Assembly (NCBI GenBank): GCA_037442925.1
Contig: JBBIPG010000005.1
Location: forward strand, 1 to 60,161
Source of the DNA: Candidatus Fraserbacteria bacterium
GTDB taxonomy: Bacteria; Bipolaricaulota; Bipolaricaulia; RBG-16-55-9
Direction of reading: 5' to 3'
Length of the DNA: 60,161 nt
A program made the translations under genes and the position numbers. Positions within the stretch are counted from its first letter, which is position 1. Every line of letters starts with the position of its first letter. The notes beneath the pieces are model-generated. The model saw nothing but the letters and a program-made list of their open reading frames with translations, made no database searches and was not told where the DNA came from. Below are positions 18,995 through 30,883 of this stretch, in pieces.

Positions 18995-19357
<363 letters not shown>

Positions 19358-19365
19358 GGTATGTC

Positions 19366-19394
19366 ATTTTAGGTTGTGGGTTCGGCGTTGTCAA
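19366..19394 (-). promoter_or_regulatory. Sigma70 promoter for tRNA-Ser(GCT)-SRP RNA
   Basis: TTGACA-17 bp-TAAAAT. Confidence 0.8.
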
Positions 19395-19411
19395 ACAGTA
19401 TAGCCATTGGG

Positions 19412-19495
19412 CGGAGGGAGAGGGATTCGAACCCCCGGGGCTCTTCGCCCTATGGTTTTCAAGACCATCGCCTTCGTCCGCTCGGCCATCCCTCC
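19412..19495 (-). tRNA. tRNA-Ser(TGA)
   Basis: GGAGGGA acceptor stem, ATGGT-CTTGAAA-ACCAT anticodon arm, variable arm, GGTTCGAATCC; CCA not exactly encoded. Confidence 0.95.
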
Positions 19496-19526
19496 GTCTC
19501 GTAATCTGCAAAACCGGGCGTACATA

Positions 19527-21873: not shown

Positions 21874-22958
21874 CAAAGCCGGTCACCGTAGATCGCAAGG
21901 AAGTCGTACGACTCTTCCGCGATATGGGGTTGGTGGGAGCTGGAGGTGCGGGTTTCCCGACATACTTTAAGTATATAAAACCCACGCCCATTCTCATTGT
22001 GAACTGCGAAGAGGGCGAGCCCGGCTACGAAGCCGATAAGCTTCTGCTCATCACCTACGCCGATCAGATGAAAGAGATGCTCGACACGCTGAAGATGATC
22101 TTCGGCTTTGAGCGCATCGTCATCGGTGCCAAAGAGAAGGACCAACAAACGCTTGATCCCCTGAAGAAATCGCACGGTTTTGAGATCGCTTACACTCCGT
22201 CGAAGTACGGCTTCGGTGAGGAACGCTGGCTTACGAAATCTGTCACCGGGCGCGAGGTTCCGGGCAAGCAGTTGCCCTCTGTTGTTGGTGTGACGGTCAA
22301 CAACGTCGAGACGATCTTCAATATGTACCGAGCGCTCTTTGAAGAGCAACCGGTGGTCGACAAATACTTAAACGTTTACGGTGAAGTCGCCGAGCCACGC
22401 GTATACTGTGTCCCTGTAGGCACGTTCAGCATTGACCTTCTGGCTCACTCAGGCATTGACACCCGAAGACACCATCAGCTCATGCTCATCGATGGCGGTC
22501 CGTTGATGGGAGACATCGCAGACGTCCGTGTGCACGCCATTCTCAAAAAGACCAACGGGTTACTCGTAGTAGACAAGGCCCTCTATGTAGGTGATCAGGT
22601 GGCGTTCAAGCAGCTTCCTGGTGAGGCGTCTCCCACGTGGGAGGACACGCTGCCGCGTGCGATGGAGAAGTTGGGGCTAACACGCTATCTCCATTGGAAG
22701 CCGAAGGCCGTGACAGATGTGGGCACAGAAATTTGGCGCGTTCGAATCTATCTCACGCACACGCTCACGCCCATTGTGAAGGCCTCAGTGCCGGCTGTGA
22801 AGGTGGGGGACAGAGTCCGCCGCGGACAGCTCGTCGCCAAGCCTCTCGATGGTCCCATCGAGGACATCAAAACTCTCAGTGTAGCTCAACACGCCAGTAT
22901 CGATGGGGTTGTCAAGGAAATCACAAGCGAGTACATCGTCATCGAGCGGGAAGCCTAG
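21870..22958 (+). CDS. RnfC/PduS-like flavoprotein (51-kDa FMN domain, SLBB, C-terminal barrel-sandwich) lacking Fe-S motifs
   Basis: GLVGAGGAGFPT, NCEEGEP..ADK, VNNVET, GGPLMG, VKVGDRV..GQ, HASIDG. Confidence 0.8.
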   Translation: MTKPVTVDRKEVVRLFRDMGLVGAGGAGFPTYFKYIKPTPILIVNCEEGEPGYEADKLLLITYADQMKEMLDTLKMIFGFERIVIGAKEKDQQTLDPLKKSHGFEIAYTPSKYGFGEERWLTKSVTGREVPGKQLPSVVGVTVNNVETIFNMYRALFEEQPVVDKYLNVYGEVAEPRVYCVPVGTFSIDLLAHSGIDTRRHHQLMLIDGGPLMGDIADVRVHAILKKTNGLLVVDKALYVGDQVAFKQLPGEASPTWEDTLPRAMEKLGLTRYLHWKPKAVTDVGTEIWRVRIYLTHTLTPIVKASVPAVKVGDRVRRGQLVAKPLDGPIEDIKTLSVAQHASIDGVVKEITSEYIVIEREA

Positions 22959-23003
22959 CATCCTGCCACAAAGATCGTTCCTACCTCATTGCTGAAGACC
23001 TCC

Positions 23004-23092
23004 ATTTAACGATTTTTTAACGATCTCCCTATATACTATCCTGCAACGCAGCAATGGGAAGAGACACCCATAAAAGGGGGGGGGTAATTGCT
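23004..23092 (+). promoter_or_regulatory. Promoter/leader with tandem TTTAACG repeats; paralog of 28087-28175
   Basis: ATTTAACGATTTTTTAACG...TATACT...AGAGAC...AAAAGG shared with 28087-28175. Confidence 0.65.
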
Positions 23093-25153
23093 ATGGCATC
23101 CCGGTACGGCAAGATAGTCCTAGCGGTTGTATTAGTCCTTTCGCTGTTGACGTTTCATCAGGTGGTCCGTGCTCCGATTTCCCAAGGGGCAGCGGGCATC
23201 ACCTATAACCCCGCCACCGATTCGCTCTTTCTCATCAATTCTTCACAAGTCTACGAGTACGACCGGGAAGGAAGACTGATCCGTGAGTTCAATGTCAGCG
23301 GCGTGGGCTTTGGCAACGGTATCGCTGCAGATCCAGAGGGGAATCTCTATATCACCGATGAGGGATCGAATAACAACGTAGGAAAGCTGCTGAAGCTGGC
23401 TCCTAGAGCAAGTGGAGGCTATGATCTTGTCTTCACAAACGACATCTTGAGCAAGCTGGGAATCGCCCCTGATGATCTCACGTTCGACCCGGAGAGCAGT
23501 CATCTCTTCATTTCCTCGTTCGATGGAGGCAACAAGGTCTTTGAGGTGACTTCAGATGGAGAAGAGATCGTGAATTCGTTCGTCGTCGGTGGAGGGACAG
23601 GGTTCGGGATTACGCTGGCCACAAGTGGGTCGTCCCGTGGGAATCTCTTCTTGACCACCTATACCAACCGGCCAGAGATCCAGATTCTCGAGATCACACG
23701 GGCTGGAACCCCTGTTCGTGCTTACTCGTTCACGGGTGGGCAATGTCCTGCGGATGGGATCGCCTTCGATCCGAGCACCGAAAAATTCTGGGTGGCAGAC
23801 CTCTGCGGCAATCAAGTGTTGTACGTAGACATCGCCACTGGGGAAGAATTGCCTCTTCCGCCGCGTACTCCTGTAGAGTTTCAGAATATGATCGCGGTCC
23901 CGACCGATCCCACGAAGATTGCATACCCCGATTTCTACCGAAACGCGCAACCCATGACCGTGCAACTCAGCGACCCAGAGTGTGTGGTACAGAGCGACAC
24001 CATCTACTACCCGAAAGACTACCTGGGCAGCTTTCCACTGCCGTCCCTTCGCGGAGGCCCACTTCCGTCCGACATTAAGCGCGGTGTCGCCATGGTAGAT
24101 GTCTGGGGTTGCTGTCTTGACTGGCCCACCCTGAATCCTAATTGTAGCGGGAGCATGCACGAAGCGTACCTGGAGACCCTGCGAAGAACTAGCTTGCTGG
24201 GAGCAGATCATGTCCTCATCTCCAATTACACCTATGTGCAGGATGCGGACTCAGCCACTCCAAAGGTGGATTTAAGTGACGGCTGGTTGCAGATCACCGA
24301 GTCCGAGATGGCGTTCCAGGCTGAGGAGGCCCATAAGAGAAATCTAGGCGTGACCCTCCTCATCAATATGGTTCCCGTTGATGAGAAGGGAAAGCCGCTT
24401 CCGACATCCCCCGCCCGGGATTGGTGGGCCACCTACCTGGACAGCTACGGTGATTTTATCTTCCAGCAGGCGCAGTGGGCCGAGAAGTATAACATCGATG
24501 CGATGATGTTGAACAACTTTGACTACGAGGCGCCATGCCACCAGCCTGACTACTCGGACATCATCGCGAGCAAGCTGCTGACCACGCTGCAGCGGGTAAG
24601 GAGCATCTACAGCGGAAAGGTCATCCTGTACGATTGTTTTTCTGGATCCCAAGACCTCAGCAAGTTAAATCAGCTATTCTCTAAGGTTGACCTCATCCTC
24701 TTTACTCTGGCTAACCCGTGGGGTCTTGATGACACGGAAAATGCTAACCTCAACACGAACTTGGTCTTGGAGAAGTACAACATCCAACTCAGATCCTACA
24801 TCCAAAGATATGCCTTGTACTCGAAACCCGTGGTCATCCGGGTATTGTTGCAATCCCACCGGGATTATCTGAAGACCGGGTTCATCGATACGGTAGCCTT
24901 TTGTGAACTCAAGGGTAATTGCGCGCAGTTTCTTGCTGTCAAGACAGACTTCTCCGTGCAAGCCATCGCTTACGAAGCCGTTTTCGAAGCGATTAACAAG
25001 ATCCACAAGCATGGTCTGACTGTCTACGCGTTCGACATCTATTGGTCTTCGTACACTGACGCTATGCTGCCAAAGAGCAACTTCGTCAATATATCTCAGT
25101 CTATCAGGAACAAGCCGGCGGAGTCGATCGTGCTCCACTGGTTCAAGAGATAG
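23093..25153 (+). CDS. Secreted protein: NHL-like beta-propeller plus putative glycoside-hydrolase-like TIM barrel
   Basis: Signal peptide; GITYNP/GIAADP/DLTFDP/GIAFDP repeats; C-terminal half with AHKRNLGVTL, AEKYNID, VRSIYSGKV (GH113-like, tentative). Confidence 0.7.
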   Translation: MASRYGKIVLAVVLVLSLLTFHQVVRAPISQGAAGITYNPATDSLFLINSSQVYEYDREGRLIREFNVSGVGFGNGIAADPEGNLYITDEGSNNNVGKLLKLAPRASGGYDLVFTNDILSKLGIAPDDLTFDPESSHLFISSFDGGNKVFEVTSDGEEIVNSFVVGGGTGFGITLATSGSSRGNLFLTTYTNRPEIQILEITRAGTPVRAYSFTGGQCPADGIAFDPSTEKFWVADLCGNQVLYVDIATGEELPLPPRTPVEFQNMIAVPTDPTKIAYPDFYRNAQPMTVQLSDPECVVQSDTIYYPKDYLGSFPLPSLRGGPLPSDIKRGVAMVDVWGCCLDWPTLNPNCSGSMHEAYLETLRRTSLLGADHVLISNYTYVQDADSATPKVDLSDGWLQITESEMAFQAEEAHKRNLGVTLLINMVPVDEKGKPLPTSPARDWWATYLDSYGDFIFQQAQWAEKYNIDAMMLNNFDYEAPCHQPDYSDIIASKLLTTLQRVRSIYSGKVILYDCFSGSQDLSKLNQLFSKVDLILFTLANPWGLDDTENANLNTNLVLEKYNIQLRSYIQRYALYSKPVVIRVLLQSHRDYLKTGFIDTVAFCELKGNCAQFLAVKTDFSVQAIAYEAVFEAINKIHKHGLTVYAFDIYWSSYTDAMLPKSNFVNISQSIRNKPAESIVLHWFKR

Positions 25154-25193
25154 ACGACGGATGAGCTACTAAGCAGTGAAGGGAGGGCCTGCA

Positions 25194-26141
25194 ATGCGCA
25201 CATGCAAAACATTGAAGCTCTTCGGGTCAGGCGCAGTCTTGCTTCTGTGGGCAGTGGCTGCGGGGAATAGTGGACAAGTTGGGTTAGCGCAGGCTCAGCC
25301 GCCGGGGATGGCTTTGATCCCGGCAGGGAGCTTTCAGATGGGGGACAGCTTCAGCGAGGGCAACTCCGACCAGCGGCCCGTGCACACCGTGTTTGTGAGT
25401 GCGTTTTACATGGACAAGTACGAGGTGACGAAGTCCTTCTGGGACGAGGTGGCCAACTGGGCAGCAGCCAACGGCTATGACATCGGGCCTGCAGATGGTT
25501 TGACAGATCGCTCTGATGGTTTCGGCAAGGTGGAGGACCATCCGGTAACGTACGTCAGCTGGTATGAAGCGGTGAAGTGGGCCAATGCGCGCAGCGAGAA
25601 GGAGGGACTGACGCCGGTCTACTACACGGACGCTTCGCAGGCGACAGTCTATCGGATGGGGAGTGTGAATGTTGCCATAGAGGGCGTGAAGTGGAACGCC
25701 AATGGGTACCGGCTGCCGACGGAGGCGGAGTGGGAGAAGGCGGCGCGCGGGGGATTGGAGGGTAAGCGCTACCCGTGGGGAGACGAAGAGCTAGTGTGTG
25801 AGGCTGGAGCACGCAATGGGGGGCGGTTTGATGATAACTACCGATGTGATGACATTGGCACCGCACCGGTGGGGACGTATTCTCCCAACGGGTACGGGCT
25901 CTACGACATGGCGGGGAACGTGTGGGAGTGGGTGTGGGACTGGTTCGACTCGTCATACTATGCGAAATCGCCTGGGCCTGATCCGCGTGGCCCTGCTTCG
26001 GGCTCGTACCGCGGAGAACGCGGCGGCAGTTGGTACTCCTACGACGCATACTTCTGCCGCGTCGCCTTCCGCTTCTACGGAGTCTCGCCCGACGGCGGCG
26101 GCTTCGACTTGGGCTTTCGCCTTATGAGGACAGCGCCCTGA
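25194..26141 (+). CDS. Secreted FGE-sulfatase/C-type-lectin-fold protein; candidate DGR target
   Basis: IPAGSFQMG, FYMDKYEVT, HPVTYVSWYEA, YRLPTEAEWEKAARGG, GLYDMAGNVWEW, RGGSW...LGFRL. Confidence 0.9.
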   Translation: MRTCKTLKLFGSGAVLLLWAVAAGNSGQVGLAQAQPPGMALIPAGSFQMGDSFSEGNSDQRPVHTVFVSAFYMDKYEVTKSFWDEVANWAAANGYDIGPADGLTDRSDGFGKVEDHPVTYVSWYEAVKWANARSEKEGLTPVYYTDASQATVYRMGSVNVAIEGVKWNANGYRLPTEAEWEKAARGGLEGKRYPWGDEELVCEAGARNGGRFDDNYRCDDIGTAPVGTYSPNGYGLYDMAGNVWEWVWDWFDSSYYAKSPGPDPRGPASGSYRGERGGSWYSYDAYFCRVAFRFYGVSPDGGGFDLGFRLMRTAP

Positions 26142-26339
26142 AGTCCTTGCCGTGGGCAATGGCTACCGACACGGCAGTGCATCTTCAAAGTGAAGATGAA
26201 ATGTGATTCAAATGAAATACAAGAGTTCACAATTGACTCATAACAGAAAGATGCGCTATCCCAGGGATTGTCCCGTGTTACGAGGTTCTATGGAACGTGG
26301 CCTTTCTGTAGTTGCGAATTCACTATATATAGGGGGGGG

Positions 26340-27239
26340 ATGCTAATGCTCACGAGCGCGCAGAGGATCTTGGGAGTCGGAGTGGTTGTAATTTTCCTTG
26401 GGGTCTGGCCTGGGGGGAGTACAGGGCAGGTTGGCTTAGTGCAGTCCTCCTTGGTGAATGAGTTCATTCAAAGTCAGCAACCCGTGCTCAGTTTGTCCGT
26501 TAGCTCGCCTGCAGCAGATGGTTCACGGCAGGCGACAGGAACACTTAACGACCCGGTTGGTCATCCCATCGCTAATGCGCCCATTGAATTCTTTCTTACG
26601 ATCATGAGCGGATCGGAAGCTTATTATGGAGAATACACGGTGTCTGCTACCGTCCCTGCCGGTGCGACGCAAGCCATGGTAGGGTTCCGAGTTAACAGGG
26701 CATGCGACTGTGCTGGAACCAGCGACTTCACGCTCTATGAAGTCCGATACACCGAAGGTACCGAAAGAACCAATCGCGTTCCCAATGGGAACTTTTCGCA
26801 AGGCTTGGTGAATTGGGGCATAGGAATGAGTACGGGTACGGTCCGCCTTGAACCCAGTGATCGGGGTCCTGGCCAGATATTGCATGTGATGGCCACACCC
26901 GCGCAAACTGCCATTCTCAATGGCACACCTTTCCCTGTGACTGCTGGAGTAACGTATACAGCTGCCTTTGTCGCACGCGTACTCCCGGTGTCCGTCGGCA
27001 GCGGCTACTTTGCAGTATTCTTCCTAGATTCATCTAGAGGAGAAGTACGAAGGGACAAGATCCCGTTGGCACCAGCTCGCCTCTCAGTTGGCAAGACGAT
27101 CACCGATACGAACGGGGCATTTCAGTTCACCTTGAGCAATCTTCCGCAAGGGCAGTTGCTGTTAGAAGGCAACTATCCGGGGGACGATGCTCGTTACTTG
27201 CCTGCATGGGCCAGTATCACACTGGAGCCCAGCAGATGA
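26340..27239 (+). CDS. Secreted Ig-like/carbohydrate-binding-like protein; paralog of the C-terminus of 28176-30020
   Basis: Signal peptide; NRVPNGNFSQGL CBM-like motif inside an Ig-like frame (GTLND..GHPI.NAPIEF...TDTNGAF). Confidence 0.7.
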   Translation: MLMLTSAQRILGVGVVVIFLGVWPGGSTGQVGLVQSSLVNEFIQSQQPVLSLSVSSPAADGSRQATGTLNDPVGHPIANAPIEFFLTIMSGSEAYYGEYTVSATVPAGATQAMVGFRVNRACDCAGTSDFTLYEVRYTEGTERTNRVPNGNFSQGLVNWGIGMSTGTVRLEPSDRGPGQILHVMATPAQTAILNGTPFPVTAGVTYTAAFVARVLPVSVGSGYFAVFFLDSSRGEVRRDKIPLAPARLSVGKTITDTNGAFQFTLSNLPQGQLLLEGNYPGDDARYLPAWASITLEPSR

Positions 27240-27292
27240 AAGCAATATCGCGCTAAGATGAAGCTACATTCATGATTGGGATCACGACGGCG

Positions 27293-27322
27293 GGGGCCGG
27301 GCGAACACCGCTCGGCCCCTTT
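27293..27322 (+). terminator. Probable intrinsic terminator
   Basis: GGGGCCGGGCG-AACAC-CGCTCGGCCCC followed by TTT. Confidence 0.65.
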
Positions 27323-27375
27323 ACTCAATTGCCGAGGCTGGAAAGGAATGACAGAGTTGGACTAAAATTGAACTA

Positions 27376-27855
27376 ATGCTTCTCATCTATGTCGACGTGT
27401 GTTGCTTAAACAGACCTTTCGACGATCAGACCCAGCAACGCATCCGTCTGGAAGCCGAAGCGGTGTTGCTGATCCTTACTCGATGCCAAAGTCGCAAGTG
27501 GCGGATGCTGAGTAGTGAAGCAGTAAATCTCGAAATCTCTCGCATCCCTGATGTTGAAAGAAAGCAACGAGTTCAGTTGTTGCATTCCTTGGTAGCATCC
27601 ATAGCGAAGGTGACGGCACAAGTCGAGCGTCGCGCTCTGGAGTTGGAAGCACTCGGATTTCAAGCATTGGATGCTTTACATATTGCCTGCGCGGAAGCCG
27701 GGGAGGCCGATGTGTTGCTCACGACCGACGATCGATTGTTGCAAACGGCAAGAAAGCATAGTAACTTGTTGAAAGTGCGGGTGGCAAACCCTGTTGCATG
27801 GTTTATGGAGGTGATTGAGCATGAAGACTTCGAAGACCAGTCCAGCTCAGATTAG
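27376..27855 (+). CDS. PIN-domain toxin (VapC-like)
   Basis: IYVDVCCLNRPFDDQ, DALHIACA, LLTTDDRL. Confidence 0.88.
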   Translation: MLLIYVDVCCLNRPFDDQTQQRIRLEAEAVLLILTRCQSRKWRMLSSEAVNLEISRIPDVERKQRVQLLHSLVASIAKVTAQVERRALELEALGFQALDALHIACAEAGEADVLLTTDDRLLQTARKHSNLLKVRVANPVAWFMEVIEHEDFEDQSSSD

Positions 27856-28036
27856 AAGCCGTGGCTTAGAGGCGCTAGCCAAAGCCCTAGGACCGGTGGG
27901 CATGGTTCGTTTCCTCCAGGAATTCGATGTCGGCAGTGGGGATTATACCGAAGACCGTCATCGATGGTTGGAGGGTGTCACCGTCCGGAAGGCCATTGAA
28001 GGAATTAAGAAGTGGCGAAGGCAAACGAGTAGGTAA
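27821..28036 (+). CDS. Putative antitoxin partner of the PIN toxin
   Basis: GLEALAKALGPVGMVRFLQ.FD.GSGDYT; overlaps the toxin end; GGAGGTG RBS. Confidence 0.75.
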   Translation: MKTSKTSPAQIRSRGLEALAKALGPVGMVRFLQEFDVGSGDYTEDRHRWLEGVTVRKAIEGIKKWRRQTSR

Positions 28037-28086
28037 CTACCCCTCCCAAGCACTAGCACCCACAAGGTACAAATCTCCCTACACGG

Positions 28087-28175
28087 ATTTAACGATTTGA
28101 TTTTTTTAACGCTCCTCCTGTATACTATTGGGCAAGTCATCCAAGTGGGAGAGACCCACAAAAAGGAGGCAGGCT
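28087..28175 (+). promoter_or_regulatory. Promoter/leader paralog of 23004-23092
   Basis: ATTTAACGATTTGATTTTTTTAACG...TATACT...AGAGAC...AAAAGGAGG. Confidence 0.65.
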
Positions 28176-30020
28176 ATGGTGCGTGCTTACATATTCAAAC
28201 TGCTCGTCTTGGGCGCAGTCTTGCTTCCTTGGGCACTGGTTGCAGGGAATAGTGAGCAGATCGGATCGGCACAACCATCCACGGAGACAAGCGGGCGGTT
28301 GGTGTGGTTTGCTCCCAACATGGATGCAGGAGGACCTGACACATGGCCATCCGGTGTCTTGCGGTTTTCCCCGCCTGAAGACGCGCGCAAGCTCTTCGAA
28401 CCTGGAGCCCCTTGGCCTTCAGGACGAGCAGGGATCCAGGTGTTCAAGTTCTACATTGACGTGCTGGGAGGCCTATACAACTTGCCAGTCTCACAAGCCA
28501 TCCAAGCGCTCAAAGATGCCAATATCGCTATCGCCGTCGAGGCTGGAGGACTGCGGGATTGGGAGTGCTCCGGTGCCAGAATGGCACAAATCGAGCTAGC
28601 CAAAATGGCTCCCATTACGCGAGCCGGCGCCCAGCTGAGTTACTTGCACTTGGATTCCCCGTTCGCTCATACGCTTGCTAGCGACAGTTCTAATCCATGC
28701 CAGTACACCATTGAGCAAGCAGCGTCCCAACTGTTGGTCTACATCAAAGCTGTAAAGCAGCAGTATCCCAACGTGAAAATCGGACTGAGCGAACCTGTCC
28801 CTCATTACACTGTGGGGGAGTTTCGGACCCAGGGAGGCCTCGTCTATGGGGACTTACTTCAACTGTTAGATACAGTTCAAGCTATACTGAAACAAGGCGG
28901 CGAAGCGCTCGACTTCTTTCACGCGGATGGAGCTGCTTATGACTGGGTTGAAGCACTCCCTGGCCGACAAGGCTGGGCTAAACTCAAGGCTCTGCAGGAT
29001 TTCGTACGGAGCCGGGGTATGCGCTTCGGCATCCTCTACAACTCTGCCCGTGCTGGCCGAACGTCTGATGAGCTCTTTTTCCATGAGACACTGGCGCTGA
29101 AGGCAAAATTCGCTCAGATTGCGGGCGACCCGGACGACTTAGTCGTGCAAAGCTGGTCTTGGTACCCGCGCCAGTGGCTGCCCGAAGACCAGCCGTACAC
29201 ATACACGTACTTGCTCAAGAAGTTCTTAACCGCCGAAGTACCGGAGCTCAGTCTTACTGTCGGTCCTCCATCGGTAGGTGACTCACGACAGATTACCGGA
29301 ACCCTCAAGGATCAGACTGGGCATCCCATTGTGAATGCGCCGATTGAGTTCTTCGTGACGCCGCTTACTGGTCAAGGGCAATTTGCTGAATACACTGAAG
29401 CTCTTGCGCCTGGTAACACGGTACCCGCTACTGTTCCAGCAGGTGTGGCACAAGCCATTGTACTGGTCCGAGTCAACCGAGCATGCGCATGCGCTGGGAC
29501 GAGCGATTTCACCCTCTATGAAGTCCGATATACTGAAGGCAACGAAACAACCAACCGCGTGCCCAATGGGAACTTTTCACAAGGATTAGAAGGTTGGGGC
29601 TGGCGAATGAGCACGGGTACGGTCCTCCTTGAACCCAGTGACCGGGGTCCTGGCCAGATGTTGCATGTGATGGCCACACCTACACAAACGGTCATTCTCA
29701 ATGGCACACCTTTCGCTGTGACGGCTGGTGCAACGTATACGACTAGCTTTGCGGCACGAGTCGCGCCGATATCCATAGGCAGCGGCTACTTTGCAGTGGT
29801 CTTCCTGGATTCATCGGGTAACGAAGTGAGACGCCTGTCAATTCCGTTCGATCTTGCCAGTATCTCTATCGGCCAGACAATTACCGATGCCAATGGAGCC
29901 TTTCAGTTCACCCTACGCGACCTTCCGGAAGGCCAGTTGCTGCTAGAAGCCAGTTATCCAGGGGACGATGAACGTTACCTACCTGCATGGGCCAGTGTCA
30001 CGCTGGAGTCCCGTAGATGA
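28176..30020 (+). CDS. Secreted protein: putative TIM-barrel domain plus Ig/CBM-like module
   Basis: AGGAGG RBS, signal peptide; C-terminal ~255 aa closely similar to 26340-27239. Confidence 0.75.
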   Translation: MVRAYIFKLLVLGAVLLPWALVAGNSEQIGSAQPSTETSGRLVWFAPNMDAGGPDTWPSGVLRFSPPEDARKLFEPGAPWPSGRAGIQVFKFYIDVLGGLYNLPVSQAIQALKDANIAIAVEAGGLRDWECSGARMAQIELAKMAPITRAGAQLSYLHLDSPFAHTLASDSSNPCQYTIEQAASQLLVYIKAVKQQYPNVKIGLSEPVPHYTVGEFRTQGGLVYGDLLQLLDTVQAILKQGGEALDFFHADGAAYDWVEALPGRQGWAKLKALQDFVRSRGMRFGILYNSARAGRTSDELFFHETLALKAKFAQIAGDPDDLVVQSWSWYPRQWLPEDQPYTYTYLLKKFLTAEVPELSLTVGPPSVGDSRQITGTLKDQTGHPIVNAPIEFFVTPLTGQGQFAEYTEALAPGNTVPATVPAGVAQAIVLVRVNRACACAGTSDFTLYEVRYTEGNETTNRVPNGNFSQGLEGWGWRMSTGTVLLEPSDRGPGQMLHVMATPTQTVILNGTPFAVTAGATYTTSFAARVAPISIGSGYFAVVFLDSSGNEVRRLSIPFDLASISIGQTITDANGAFQFTLRDLPEGQLLLEASYPGDDERYLPAWASVTLESRR

Positions 30021-30168
30021 CAGCGACAACGCACTGAGACGGAGCCGTATTCAGGGCTGGAATCGCGAAGGCAGGGGCCGGGCGAACTCCGCACTCAGCC
30101 CACTGTGATCTTTTTGATGTCCCTACATGACCAGGCTAAAATGAACTGACTAGAGGAGTGAGTGTACG

Positions 30169-30486
30169 ATGCGGGAGCGAATATACGCGTATCTCGTTGA
30201 CTTCATCGTCGAACCCGATGATGGCCAATACTATGCACATTGCCCTGGACTCGGAGGAGTTCATGAGAGCGGGGAAACTGTGGAAGAGGCCTTGGCCAAT
30301 GCGTATGACTCCTTTCTGTCGATATTGGAAGTCCGCTTGGAACGAGGAGATGTGCTCCCTGAAGGCCCCCACTTGATTGCTCTGCGCACTCCCCCGGAGT
30401 TGCCTCTCGAAGACATAAGACCAAAGCTCAAGGAACGCAAAGGACGCCGTCAGGTTAAGACCCTCTTGGTACCAGCTCCCGCTTGA
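30169..30486 (+). CDS. HicB-family antitoxin
   Basis: YYAHCPGLGGVHESGETVEEALAN. Confidence 0.85.
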   Translation: MRERIYAYLVDFIVEPDDGQYYAHCPGLGGVHESGETVEEALANAYDSFLSILEVRLERGDVLPEGPHLIALRTPPELPLEDIRPKLKERKGRRQVKTLLVPAPA

Positions 30487-30505
30487 CTGTACGGCGAGAT
30501 CTAGA

Positions 30506-30775
30506 GTGTGGCCGAAACACATCTGGGATCAACTCAAAAATCTCACTGCGCAGGATCTGATTAATGCGCTTGACAGGAGAGAATCCGGTTGGACCCGGGT
30601 GCGTACTAAAGGGAGTCGCTACATCTATCGCAACCCCAATCGGCCACCGGACAAGCAGGATGTCTCCATCCATTTTCACCCTAGGAAAACCTTCGGACCC
30701 AAACAGCTCAGAGGCCTACTCGATACTATTGGCTGGAAGGAAGCCGATCTCCGTCGACTCAAGCTCATTCGGTAG
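30506..30775 (+). CDS. HicA-family toxin
   Basis: LINALDR..GW.RVRTKGSRYIY, SIHFHP.KTFGPKQL..LL..IGW. Confidence 0.8.
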   Translation: MWPKHIWDQLKNLTAQDLINALDRRESGWTRVRTKGSRYIYRNPNRPPDKQDVSIHFHPRKTFGPKQLRGLLDTIGWKEADLRRLKLIR

Positions 30776-30883
30776 CATCTGGCCCCTTGACTTTCCCAGT
30801 GAAATCCTCTTTGAAATCCGCAAGCTCCACTAGCTATAATCCTCCGTACACTCGAACCCCAAATCATAAAGGGAGGAACATCG

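What the first reader, a model, noticed from the sequence alone, without database searches (positions are those of the whole stretch)
26019..26198. Probable DGR variable region in a secreted C-type-lectin-fold gene, with no RT or template repeat nearby
Seen: between GGSW and LGFR the non-scaffold codons are almost all NNC (TAC TCC TAC GAC . TAC TTC ... TTC . TTC TAC . GTC ... GGC GGC GGC TTC GAC), as expected from adenine mutagenesis of AAC template codons. Two inverted repeats follow the stop (TGCCGTG/CACGGCA 26148-26176; CATCTTCA-AAG-TGAAGATG 26180-26198). Known: DGRs diversify C-terminal CLec/FGE domains, often need a downstream hairpin, and can act on remote targets. Inference: a trans-targeted or orphaned hypervariable ligand-binding protein in a cellular surface-protein island. 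GC3 bias could partly explain the NNC pattern.
Basis: partly seen in the sequence, partly recalled or inferred. Interest (0 to 1): 0.7.

Follow-up and report, generated by a model that had tools for sequence, protein, structure and literature searches.

The report
Orphan retroelement-written tip on secreted lectin-like protein
The last 35 codons of this secreted lectin-like gene carry the clear mark of a diversity-generating retroelement, but the reverse transcriptase and template that wrote it are not in this genome, so it is an ordinary orphaned or remotely served target of a well-known system.

Summary
In window 26019-26123, 27 of 35 codons end in C, against 78 of 287 in the rest of the gene (Fisher p 1.2e-8). 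All 16 variable codons are NNC (P about 4e-6 given the genome's codon usage).

The gene (25194-26141) encodes a secreted TvpA-like protein with an FGE-sulfatase / C-type-lectin fold. It lacks the FGE cysteine pair.

Template repeats (TRs) from other Bipolaricaulota genomes give the strongest evidence. The window's variable region matches them at 53 of 57 non-adenine columns but at only 5 of 24 adenine columns.

The 94%-complete MAG holds no DGR reverse transcriptase (RT), TR or HRDC gene. The phylum shows a decay series:
- intact target-HRDC-RT-TR cassettes in 2 of 184 genomes;
- a truncated RT in one genome;
- a truncated TR without an RT in one genome;
- a decayed variable region in a closed genome with no RT.

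The gene lies in a 7.86-kb island that is absent from the same-genus genome.

Best reading: a genuine DGR-written variable region, now orphaned (about 0.6). The main rival is a remote target of a cassette missing from the bin (about 0.33).

This is a known kind, and this scan has found it before on other DNA.

The parts
25194..26141 (+). Gene for a 315-aa secreted FGE-sulfatase / C-type-lectin-fold protein (TvpA-like DGR variable protein). The mechanical ORF starts at GTG 25176. The likely start is ATG 25194, 8 nt after GGAGGG.
   Evidence: ORF list. Pfam PF03781 E 2.8e-60 over residues 42-318. The database copy of the protein is 315 aa (P0001). AlphaFold model pLDDT 76, pTM 0.78. Foldseek: FGE 2q17 at 6e-19 and TvpA 2y3c at 9.7e-19.
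25194..25301 (+). Predicted N-terminal signal or leader (MRTCKTLKLFGSGAVLLLWAVAAGNSGQVGLAQAQ). The ...AGNSGQVGLAQ motif is shared with two other island proteins and with homologues elsewhere in the phylum.
   Evidence: Read from the sequence. The 81-nt leader DNA is 73% identical to that of the gene at 28128 (D3). The same motif is in P0007, P0009, P0014 and P0018. Secretion is inferred; no signal-peptide predictor was run.
26019..26123 (+). DGR-type variable region. The scaffold codons are RGGSW, A, CRVA, R, SP and LGFRL. The 16 variable NNC codons lie between 26034 and 26108.
   Evidence: codon statistics. (53/57 identity to heterologous TRs at non-A columns, 5/24 at A columns).
26109..26141 (+). 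Constant 3' end of the VR (TTGGGCTTTCGCCTTATGAGGACAGCGCCCTGA). It is the VR-type, IMH-like end, and its DNA is conserved among homologues that are only about 65% identical as proteins.
   Evidence: L013, L008, L136 and L137 share ...GTGAGGACAGCGCC, whereas the TRs end ...TGAGCACA(A/C)CGCACGG.
26148..26176 (+). Inverted repeat 1: a 7-bp stem (TGCCGTG / CACGGCA) with a 15-nt loop.
   Evidence: The function is open: a terminator, or a DGR target hairpin.
26180..26198 (+). Inverted repeat 2: an 8-bp AT-rich stem (CATCTTCA / TGAAGATG) with a 3-nt loop.
   Evidence: VRs beside DGR cassettes in L109, L092 and L044 have GC-rich 8-9-bp stems with 3-4-nt loops in a comparable position. The resemblance is in geometry only.
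22955..30809 (.). A 7.86-kb lineage-specific island that carries the gene. Order: 699-aa NHL-repeat secreted protein, the VR gene, a 323-aa protein, a PIN toxin-antitoxin pair, a 630-aa secreted protein, HicB/HicA. It lies between an Nuo51/RnfC-like gene and lipA.
   Evidence: In the same-genus G001 the flanks are 5 nt apart. In G003 they are 140 nt apart. Pfam hits.

Best explanation
The gene encodes a secreted ligand-binding protein of the TvpA type, built on an FGE-sulfatase / C-type-lectin fold. The codons for its C-terminal binding surface were written by a diversity-generating retroelement (DGR). In that process an RT copies a template-repeat RNA, misincorporates at adenines, and the cDNA replaces the variable region. 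AAC template codons therefore become NNC codons while every non-adenine base is copied faithfully.

The matching DGR type in this phylum is target - HRDC - RT - TR, which is 'Architecture C' of Wu et al. In this genome the cassette is gone or never arrived. The gene sits alone in a 7.86-kb horizontally variable island, so the present allele is most likely frozen: an orphan variable region.

Shown: the footprint, the fold, the absence of RT, TR and HRDC from the assembly, the island, and the decay series in relatives. Inferred: secretion, ligand binding, and that the absence from the assembly is a true absence.
For: (1) Codon footprint: C at the third position in 27/35 codons against 78/287 (p 1.2e-8). 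16 of 16 variable codons are NNC (P about 4e-6). Genome-wide frequency 4.6e-5.

(2) Heterologous TRs: the window VR equals the Bipolaricaulota TRs at 53/57 invariant non-A columns but at only 5/24 all-A columns. Across 16 VRs, entropy is 1.67 bits at A columns and 0.37 bits at non-A columns.

(3) Positive controls in the phylum:
- L109 holds an intact cassette: FGE target, HRDC (PF00570, 1.7e-20), a 334-aa RT with PIGNLISQ, and a TR. 16 of 18 core mismatches lie at TR adenines.
- L092: 18 of 21 core mismatches at TR adenines.
- L029: 8 of 8.

(4) Negative controls: two non-DGR FGE paralogue groups in the same phylum keep this segment conserved.

(5) Absence in the own genome (94.4% complete):
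- PF00078: 0 hits.
- DGR-RT profile A1: 0 hits at E<=1; best E 2.1 with filters off.
- tblastn with the L109 and L092 RT and HRDC proteins: nothing below E 0.1.
- blastn (word size 7) and regex searches for TR and the spacer region find only the VR itself.
- Only one FGE gene in the genome.

(6) Decay series:
- The A1 profile finds a DGR-type RT in only 2 of 184 phylum genomes (G055 and G056, E about 5e-148), plus one truncated 137-aa RT (G049 = L092).
- 24 of 184 genomes carry a homologue.
- L029 keeps a 5'-truncated TR with no RT within 10 kb.
- The closed genome G038 has a homologue with a decayed VR (C3 17/38) and no RT.

(7) The island is absent from the same-genus genome.
Against: The assembly is a MAG of 86 contigs, and about 6% of marker genes are missing. 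In relatives the DGR cassettes sit on short contigs (the L092 contig is 5.2 kb; the G055 cassette contig is read only to about 4.15 kb). Such contigs are easily lost from a bin.

The VR is pristine: no NNT or NNG drift in the 16 variable codons, and the frame is intact. That also fits recent or continuing rewriting. HRDC-type DGRs are the ones known to serve many remote targets (Treponema: seven; passages of PMC5758913).

Purity does not discriminate between the readings. Several VRs from genomes without an RT are as pure as the VR beside the intact cassette.

No reads or near-identical alleles were available. The protein is a singleton cluster and its nearest relative is 76% identical, so activity could not be tested.
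Confidence: 0.6

Rival explanations
1. Live remote target. The organism still has an HRDC-type DGR cassette (RT, TR, probably with its own adjacent target) on DNA missing from the bin: a short, unassembled or unbinned contig, a plasmid or a prophage. That cassette rewrites this VR in trans, as the Treponema denticola DGR does for its remote targets.
For: The VR is pristine (16/16 NNC) and the frame is intact. The 3' constant end is conserved and hairpins follow it. Cassettes in relatives lie on short contigs. The MAG is 94% complete. Remote targets are documented for 45 of 372 DGRs and for the HRDC/Treponema clade (passages of PMC5758913).
Against: There is no RT, TR, spacer region or HRDC anywhere in 2.07 Mb. 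There is no second FGE gene. Only 2 of the 24 homologue-bearing phylum genomes have an intact DGR RT. Pattern scans for window-type VR or TR sequences found 0 or only the known L011 VR in the metagenome and viral collections. Records close to the window's genome may be left out of those collections.
Confidence: 0.33
2. Not a DGR product. The NNC pattern comes from local codon bias or from selection for a Tyr/Phe/Asp/Gly-rich loop in an ordinary FGE-family protein.
For: The genome prefers C or G at third positions to some extent (C 0.35, G 0.31).
Against: TAC is used 0.50, GAC 0.43, GGC 0.38, TCC 0.19 and GTC 0.36, giving a joint P of about 4e-6. Variable and constant columns coincide with the adenine and non-adenine positions of real TRs from the phylum. 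Synonymous sites of the scaffold codons are conserved among proteins that are only about 65% identical. Non-DGR paralogue groups do not show the pattern.
Confidence: 0.04
3. A working formylglycine-generating enzyme (a sulfatase maturase), not a binding protein.
For: The best sequence and fold matches are FGE enzymes (6muj and 2q17 at E 1e-40; Foldseek 6e-19).
Against: In the phmmer alignment to 6muj, the two cysteines of ...LCHDSYC... align to Ser and Phe of the window protein, both at hypervariable positions. That these cysteines are the copper-binding catalytic pair is recalled knowledge; the entry titles 'C336S mutant' and 'C341S mutant' are consistent with it. No sulfatase gene was looked for.
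Confidence: 0.02

Closest known systems
Treponema denticola DGR and its variable protein TvpA (PDB 2Y3C): HRDC-containing 'Architecture C', target category 'b' (CLec1 VR inside an FGE-sulfatase domain) of Wu et al. 2018, NAR 46:11 (PMC5758913; passages read)
   Same: It has the same fold (2y3c: E 3e-27 by sequence; rank 4 by fold). The VR is C-terminal over the former FGE active-site region. The cassettes of the same phylum carry HRDC rather than an identified Avd. Non-adjacent targets are a documented feature of this clade.
   Different: No RT, TR or HRDC was found in this genome. The host is a Bipolaricaulota MAG. The gene sits in a small island with toxin-antitoxin pairs. Two literature searches pairing the DGR term with Bipolaricaulota and with Acetothermia returned 0 papers. 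Supplementary tables of the large surveys were not opened and may list such DGRs.
Bordetella phage BPP-1 DGR (mtd VR - avd - TR - brt)
   Same: Adenine-specific TR-to-VR rewriting of AAC codons at the C-terminus of a C-type-lectin-fold protein. A constant 3' end and a downstream hairpin-capable sequence are present (the BPP-1 IMH and hairpin are recalled, not tested here).
   Different: The accessory gene in the phylum's cassettes is HRDC, not Avd. The context is cellular, not a phage tail fibre. The window's stems are AT-rich or have a large loop, unlike the GC-rich stems beside cassettes in L109, L092 and L044.
Formylglycine-generating enzymes (SUMF1 / FGE; 6muj, 2q17, 1y1e)
   Same: Pfam PF03781 over the full length. 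These are the best PDB matches.
   Different: The cysteine pair is not conserved, and that segment is the hypervariable one. So the fold is shared but the enzyme activity is not expected.
Orphaned DGR variable regions noted earlier in this scan on other genomes (e1-3857765, e1-5221365, e1-5069696, e1-3531609)
   Same: An FGE/CLec-fold gene with a clear VR footprint and no RT or TR in view. Some of those were also judged pristine or frozen.
   Different: They are in different organisms. Here the relatives supply a graded decay series and an intact control cassette within one phylum, and the gene is shown to lie in an island absent from the sister species.

Membership tests
DGR variable region (target of mutagenic retrohoming) | Located at the C-terminus of a C-type-lectin / FGE-sulfatase-fold (or Ig-fold) protein | tested here: met
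   PF03781 E 2.8e-60. The VR is the last 35-40 codons. Fold matches to FGE and TvpA.
DGR variable region (target of mutagenic retrohoming) | Variable codons of NNC type, derived from AAC template codons, interspersed with invariant scaffold codons | tested here: met
   16/16 variable codons are NNC, P about 4e-6. Genome-wide frequency 4.6e-5.
DGR variable region (target of mutagenic retrohoming) | A cognate template repeat in the same genome that differs from the VR only at adenines | tested here: not met
   No second copy by blastn word size 7, by regex, or with relatives' TR and spacer sequences. Heterologous TRs from the phylum show the expected relation (53/57 against 5/24). The assembly is 94% complete.
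DGR variable region (target of mutagenic retrohoming) | A DGR-clade reverse transcriptase in the same genome | tested here: not met
   PF00078: 0 hits. DGR-RT profile A1: 0 hits at E<=1, best E 2.1 with filters off. tblastn with the L109 RT: best E 1.2. Control: the same profile finds G055 and G056 at 5e-148.
DGR variable region (target of mutagenic retrohoming) | An accessory gene (Avd or HRDC) in the same genome | tested here: not met
   tblastn with the HRDC proteins of L092 and L109: best E 1.1. Avd was not searched.
DGR variable region (target of mutagenic retrohoming) | A 3' IMH-type constant end and a downstream hairpin or cruciform | tested here: inconclusive
   The constant end is conserved at the DNA level with other VRs. 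Two stems follow the stop, but they are AT-rich or have a large loop. The stems beside cassettes are GC-rich.
DGR variable region (target of mutagenic retrohoming) | Population-level variation confined to the variable positions (current activity) | not testable with these tools
   No reads are available. The protein is a singleton cluster and its nearest relative is 76% identical.
Formylglycine-generating enzyme (catalytic FGE) | The conserved active-site cysteine pair (Cys-x4-Cys) | tested here: not met
   In the alignment to 6muj...LCHDSYC... lies over ...YSYDAYF..., so the two Cys align to Ser and Phe. The catalytic role of these cysteines is recalled.

The most novel reading that the evidence does not exclude
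The VR is still being rewritten, by an HRDC-type cassette carried on DNA outside the bin, such as a mobile element. On this reading DGR targets in Bipolaricaulota travel on small islands without their cassettes and are adopted in trans by whichever cassette is present. The intact, truncated and absent states seen in the phylum would then reflect turnover of a mobile mutator rather than simple decay.
Probability: 0.25. Interest if true: 0.45.

Novelty: new member of a known kind. Interest (0 to 1): 0.28.

Why it matters
The finding adds a clean example of a DGR target without its retroelement, in an uncultured phylum (Bipolaricaulota / Acetothermia). My two literature searches found no DGR report for that phylum.

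It also shows how to recognise such a target without its own template. Template repeats from related genomes separate adenine columns from non-adenine columns.

The graded states within one phylum suggest that DGR cassettes are often lost while their last-written binding sites persist:
- an intact cassette;
- a truncated RT;
- a truncated TR;
- a VR alone;
- a decayed VR in a closed genome.

Surveys that start from the RT miss these orphans. The biology itself (FGE-fold DGR targets, remote targets, HRDC-type cassettes) is already described.

Tried and rejected
- Cognate TR in the own genome: blastn-short with word size 7, regex for AAC runs and for W..A..C patterns, and blastn with relatives' TR plus spacer region all found only the VR itself.
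- RT in the own genome: PF00078, a six-sequence DGR-RT profile, tblastn with two Bipolaricaulota RT and HRDC proteins, and hmmsearch with filters off found nothing.
- RTs in relatives that turned out not to be DGR:
  - G009 L020 and G004 L105 sit next to Cas1.
  - G004 L021 and 24 other loci carry the group-II-type PQG..SP motif.
  - L126 is a frameshifted group-II-type RT, and L130 is another non-DGR type.
  - L107 is a 519-aa Abi-like protein by my reading.
  - L023 and L027 gave no hit to the DGR profile and were not classified further.
- Collection scans with a degenerate pattern of the window-type VR/TR (four codons between W and A): 0 matches in metagenome contigs and viral contigs.
- A looser 3' pattern gave 1 metagenome match, which is the already known L011 VR contig, and 0 viral matches.
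- Near-identical alleles for comparing VRs: none. The cluster is a singleton.
- NNC purity as a clock for time since the last rewriting: it does not separate genomes with an RT from genomes without one.
- Rfam over the island: 0 matches at E<=1.
- Notes of this scan on the own genome: nothing relevant.

Full report
**What is there.** Window 25176-26141 (+) is an open frame of 321 codons. The likely start is ATG 25194, 8 nt after GGAGGG, which gives the 315-aa protein that the public collection holds as a singleton (P0001).

The protein matches Pfam FGE-sulfatase over residues 42-318 (E 2.8e-60). Its N-terminus has a basic stretch, then a hydrophobic stretch, then AGNSGQVGLAQ. I read this as a secretion leader; that is inference, and no predictor was run.

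An AlphaFold model built on 57 aligned homologues has pLDDT 76 and pTM 0.78. Its best fold matches are Streptomyces FGE (2q17, 6e-19) and the Treponema denticola variable protein TvpA (2y3c, 9.7e-19, rank 4). By sequence, 6muj scores 1e-40 and 2y3c scores 3e-27.

In the alignment to 6muj, the two cysteines of ...LCHDSYC... lie over Ser and Phe of the window protein. The enzyme's cysteine pair is therefore absent, and this segment is the one that varies. The catalytic role of the pair is recalled knowledge.

**The observation.**
- In 26019-26123, 27 of 35 codons end in C, against 78 of 287 in the rest of the gene (Fisher p 1.2e-8).
- The genome's third positions are C 0.35 and G 0.31. TAC is used 0.50, GAC 0.43, GGC 0.38, TCC 0.19 and GTC 0.36.
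- The chance that all 16 variable codons are the C-ending synonym is therefore about 4e-6.
- Among 1,068,828 windows of 35 codons in all long frames of the genome, a fraction of 4.6e-5 reach 27. Only 8 frames do so, and this is one of them.
- Both inverted repeats are at the stated coordinates. They dominate the fold of 26139-26215 (z -3.4), and no T-run follows them.

**Evidence that a DGR wrote it.** The organism is a Bipolaricaulota / Acetothermia MAG, judged from the titles of the closest loci.

Homologues of 57-69% identity occur in 9 of 41 nearest genomes and in 24 of 184 genomes of the phylum. None is in the 8 other genomes of the window's own family.

Their C-termini keep the scaffold RGGSW..A..CRVA.R...SP.....LGFRLVRTAP, including its synonymous sites. 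The interspersed codons differ freely and are mostly NNC.

Three template repeats were found in the phylum.
- L109 (G055) is an intact cassette. It has an FGE target; an HRDC gene (PF00570, 1.7e-20); a 334-aa RT with PIGNLISQ that matches RVT_1 at 52 bits; and a TR. 16 of 18 core mismatches lie at TR adenines.
- L092 (G049) has the target, the HRDC gene and a full TR (18 of 21 core mismatches at adenines). Its RT is cut down to 137 aa.
- L029 (G009, same order as the window) has, 30 nt after the target's stop, only the 3' 81 nt of a TR plus the conserved region downstream of it. All 8 of 8 mismatches are at adenines, and no RT lies within 10 kb.

I aligned these three TRs with 16 VRs. The window's VR equals the TRs at 53 of 57 invariant non-adenine columns but at only 5 of 24 all-adenine columns. 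Across the 16 VRs, entropy is 1.67 bits at adenine columns and 0.37 bits at the others.

Two other FGE paralogue groups in the phylum, which are not of this type, keep the same segment conserved. They serve as a negative control.

The window's cognate TR must have differed from the three found. The window has one extra codon after TGG, an extra GGA, and TTC where the others have an AAT-derived codon.

**What is missing.** The assembly has 2.07 Mb in 86 contigs and is 94.4% complete with 0.16% contamination. The searches found:
- no RVT_1 match;
- no match to a profile of six DGR RTs at E<=1, with best E 2.1 when filters are off;
- nothing below E 0.1 with the Bipolaricaulota RT and HRDC proteins;
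- no second copy of the VR, of a TR or of the TR-downstream region;
- only this one FGE gene.

The same RT profile finds G055 and G056 at about 5e-148, so the search works in this phylum.

Of the 38 RT loci fetched from relatives:
- three are of DGR type (L108, L109, and the truncated RT in L115, which is the same contig as L092);
- 25 carry the group-II-type PQG..SP motif;
- four are two Cas1-adjacent RTs, each fetched twice (L020/L106 and L024/L105);
- L126 is a frameshifted group-II type, and L130 is another non-DGR type;
- L026 and L107 are one Abi-like protein by my reading;
- L023 and L027 did not match the DGR profile and were not classified.

Of the 77 homologue loci from named genomes, 8 have a DGR-type RT in the fetched flanks. 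Six of those built the profile, so they match by construction. The other two are L066 and the truncated L092.

**Context.** Window 22955-30809 is absent from the same-genus genome G001, where the flanks are 5 nt apart. It is also absent from G003, where they are 140 nt apart.

The 7.86-kb island holds, in order: a 699-aa NHL-repeat protein, the VR gene, a 323-aa protein, a PIN toxin-antitoxin pair, a 630-aa protein and a HicB/HicA pair. It lies between an Nuo51/RnfC-like gene and lipA. There is no integrase, and no tRNA at the borders.

So the target lies on horizontally variable DNA that has no cassette of its own.

**Orphan or remote target.**

For an orphan:
- everything is absent from the assembly;
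- an intact DGR is rare among homologue-bearing genomes (2 of 24);
- decay is demonstrated in relatives, including a closed genome (G038) that has a decayed VR (C3 17/38) and no RT.

For a live remote target:
- the VR is pristine;
- cassettes in relatives lie on short contigs (the L092 contig is 5.2 kb), which binning can lose;
- HRDC-type DGRs are the clade known for remote targets. The Treponema DGR has seven, and 45 of 372 DGRs have non-adjacent targets (passages of PMC5758913).

NNC purity does not separate genomes with and without an RT. No reads or close alleles were available. Pattern scans of the metagenome and viral collections found no cognate TR, but records near this genome may be excluded from those collections.

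I put the orphan reading at about 0.6 and the remote-target reading at about 0.33.

**Comparison with what is known.** This is category 'b' of Wu et al.: a CLec1 VR inside an FGE-sulfatase domain, found in 71 of 372 DGRs and exemplified by TvpA. The phylum's cassettes are HRDC-containing 'Architecture C' (passages read).

Membership as a DGR-written VR is supported by fold, position and footprint. The features that define an active target (cognate TR, RT, accessory gene in the same genome) were tested and not met. I therefore file it as an orphaned or remotely served member, not as part of a complete DGR.

Earlier notes of this scan describe the same situation on other DNA. One of them pointed me to the Architecture C passage, which I then read myself.

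Two literature searches pairing the DGR term with Bipolaricaulota and with Acetothermia returned no paper. Roux et al. 2021 (PMC8144416, passages only) state that their RT-centred approach would not detect remote targets. Its supplements were not opened.

**Verdict.** This is a new member of a known kind, of modest interest.

Noticed in passing
window 25211-25291 and 28193-28273; also 26346-26440: Three island proteins (the VR protein, the 630-aa protein and the 323-aa protein) share an N-terminal leader ending ...AGNS(G/E)Q(V/I)G(L/S)(A/V)Q. Two of the leaders are 73% identical over 81 nt of DNA. The same leader motif is on homologues from other Bipolaricaulota (P0007, P0009, P0014, P0018). 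It may be a lineage-specific secretion or sorting signal.
   Followed up: partly
window 23013-23046 and 28102-28135: A 34-nt element (TTTTTTAACG.TC..CCT.TATACTAT...) is repeated at 79% identity just upstream of the 699-aa and 630-aa genes. It may be a shared promoter or 5' leader (D5).
   Followed up: no
window 26635-27311 and 29416-30092: The C-terminal halves of the 323-aa and 630-aa proteins are paralogous: 83% identity over 300 nt and 76% over 252 nt. The domain hits Big_1 / CarboxypepD_reg only weakly, below the Pfam cut-offs.
   Followed up: no
L029 10891-11060 (G009, same order): A DGR relic: the 3' 81 nt of a TR and its conserved downstream region lie 30 nt after the target gene's stop, and the HRDC and RT genes are deleted. 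A near-identical allele of that protein (P0019) differs in the VR at two residues, N to S and I to V, both at codons that are AAY in the TR.
   Followed up: partly
L092 605-1660 (G049) and L109 998-2690 (G055), same genus as the closed genome G038: One genus holds three states: an intact HRDC-RT-TR cassette; a cassette whose RT is cut to its C-terminal 137 aa; and a closed genome with a decayed VR and no RT.
   Followed up: yes
L020 1279-3349 (G009) and L105 305-2391 (G004): Reverse transcriptases sit directly next to Cas1 (and Cas2 in L020). RT-associated CRISPR adaptation modules are therefore present in Bipolaricaulota relatives.
   Followed up: no
window 30169-30775; L108 351-928: A HicB/HicA pair closes the island in the window. 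A HicA/HicB-like pair also lies next to the intact DGR cassette of G056. This may be coincidence or a shared mobile context.
   Followed up: no
window 19266-19496 (-): Two tandem tRNA-Ser genes (anticodons GCT and TGA) lie 3.5 kb left of the island. They are not at its border.
   Followed up: no
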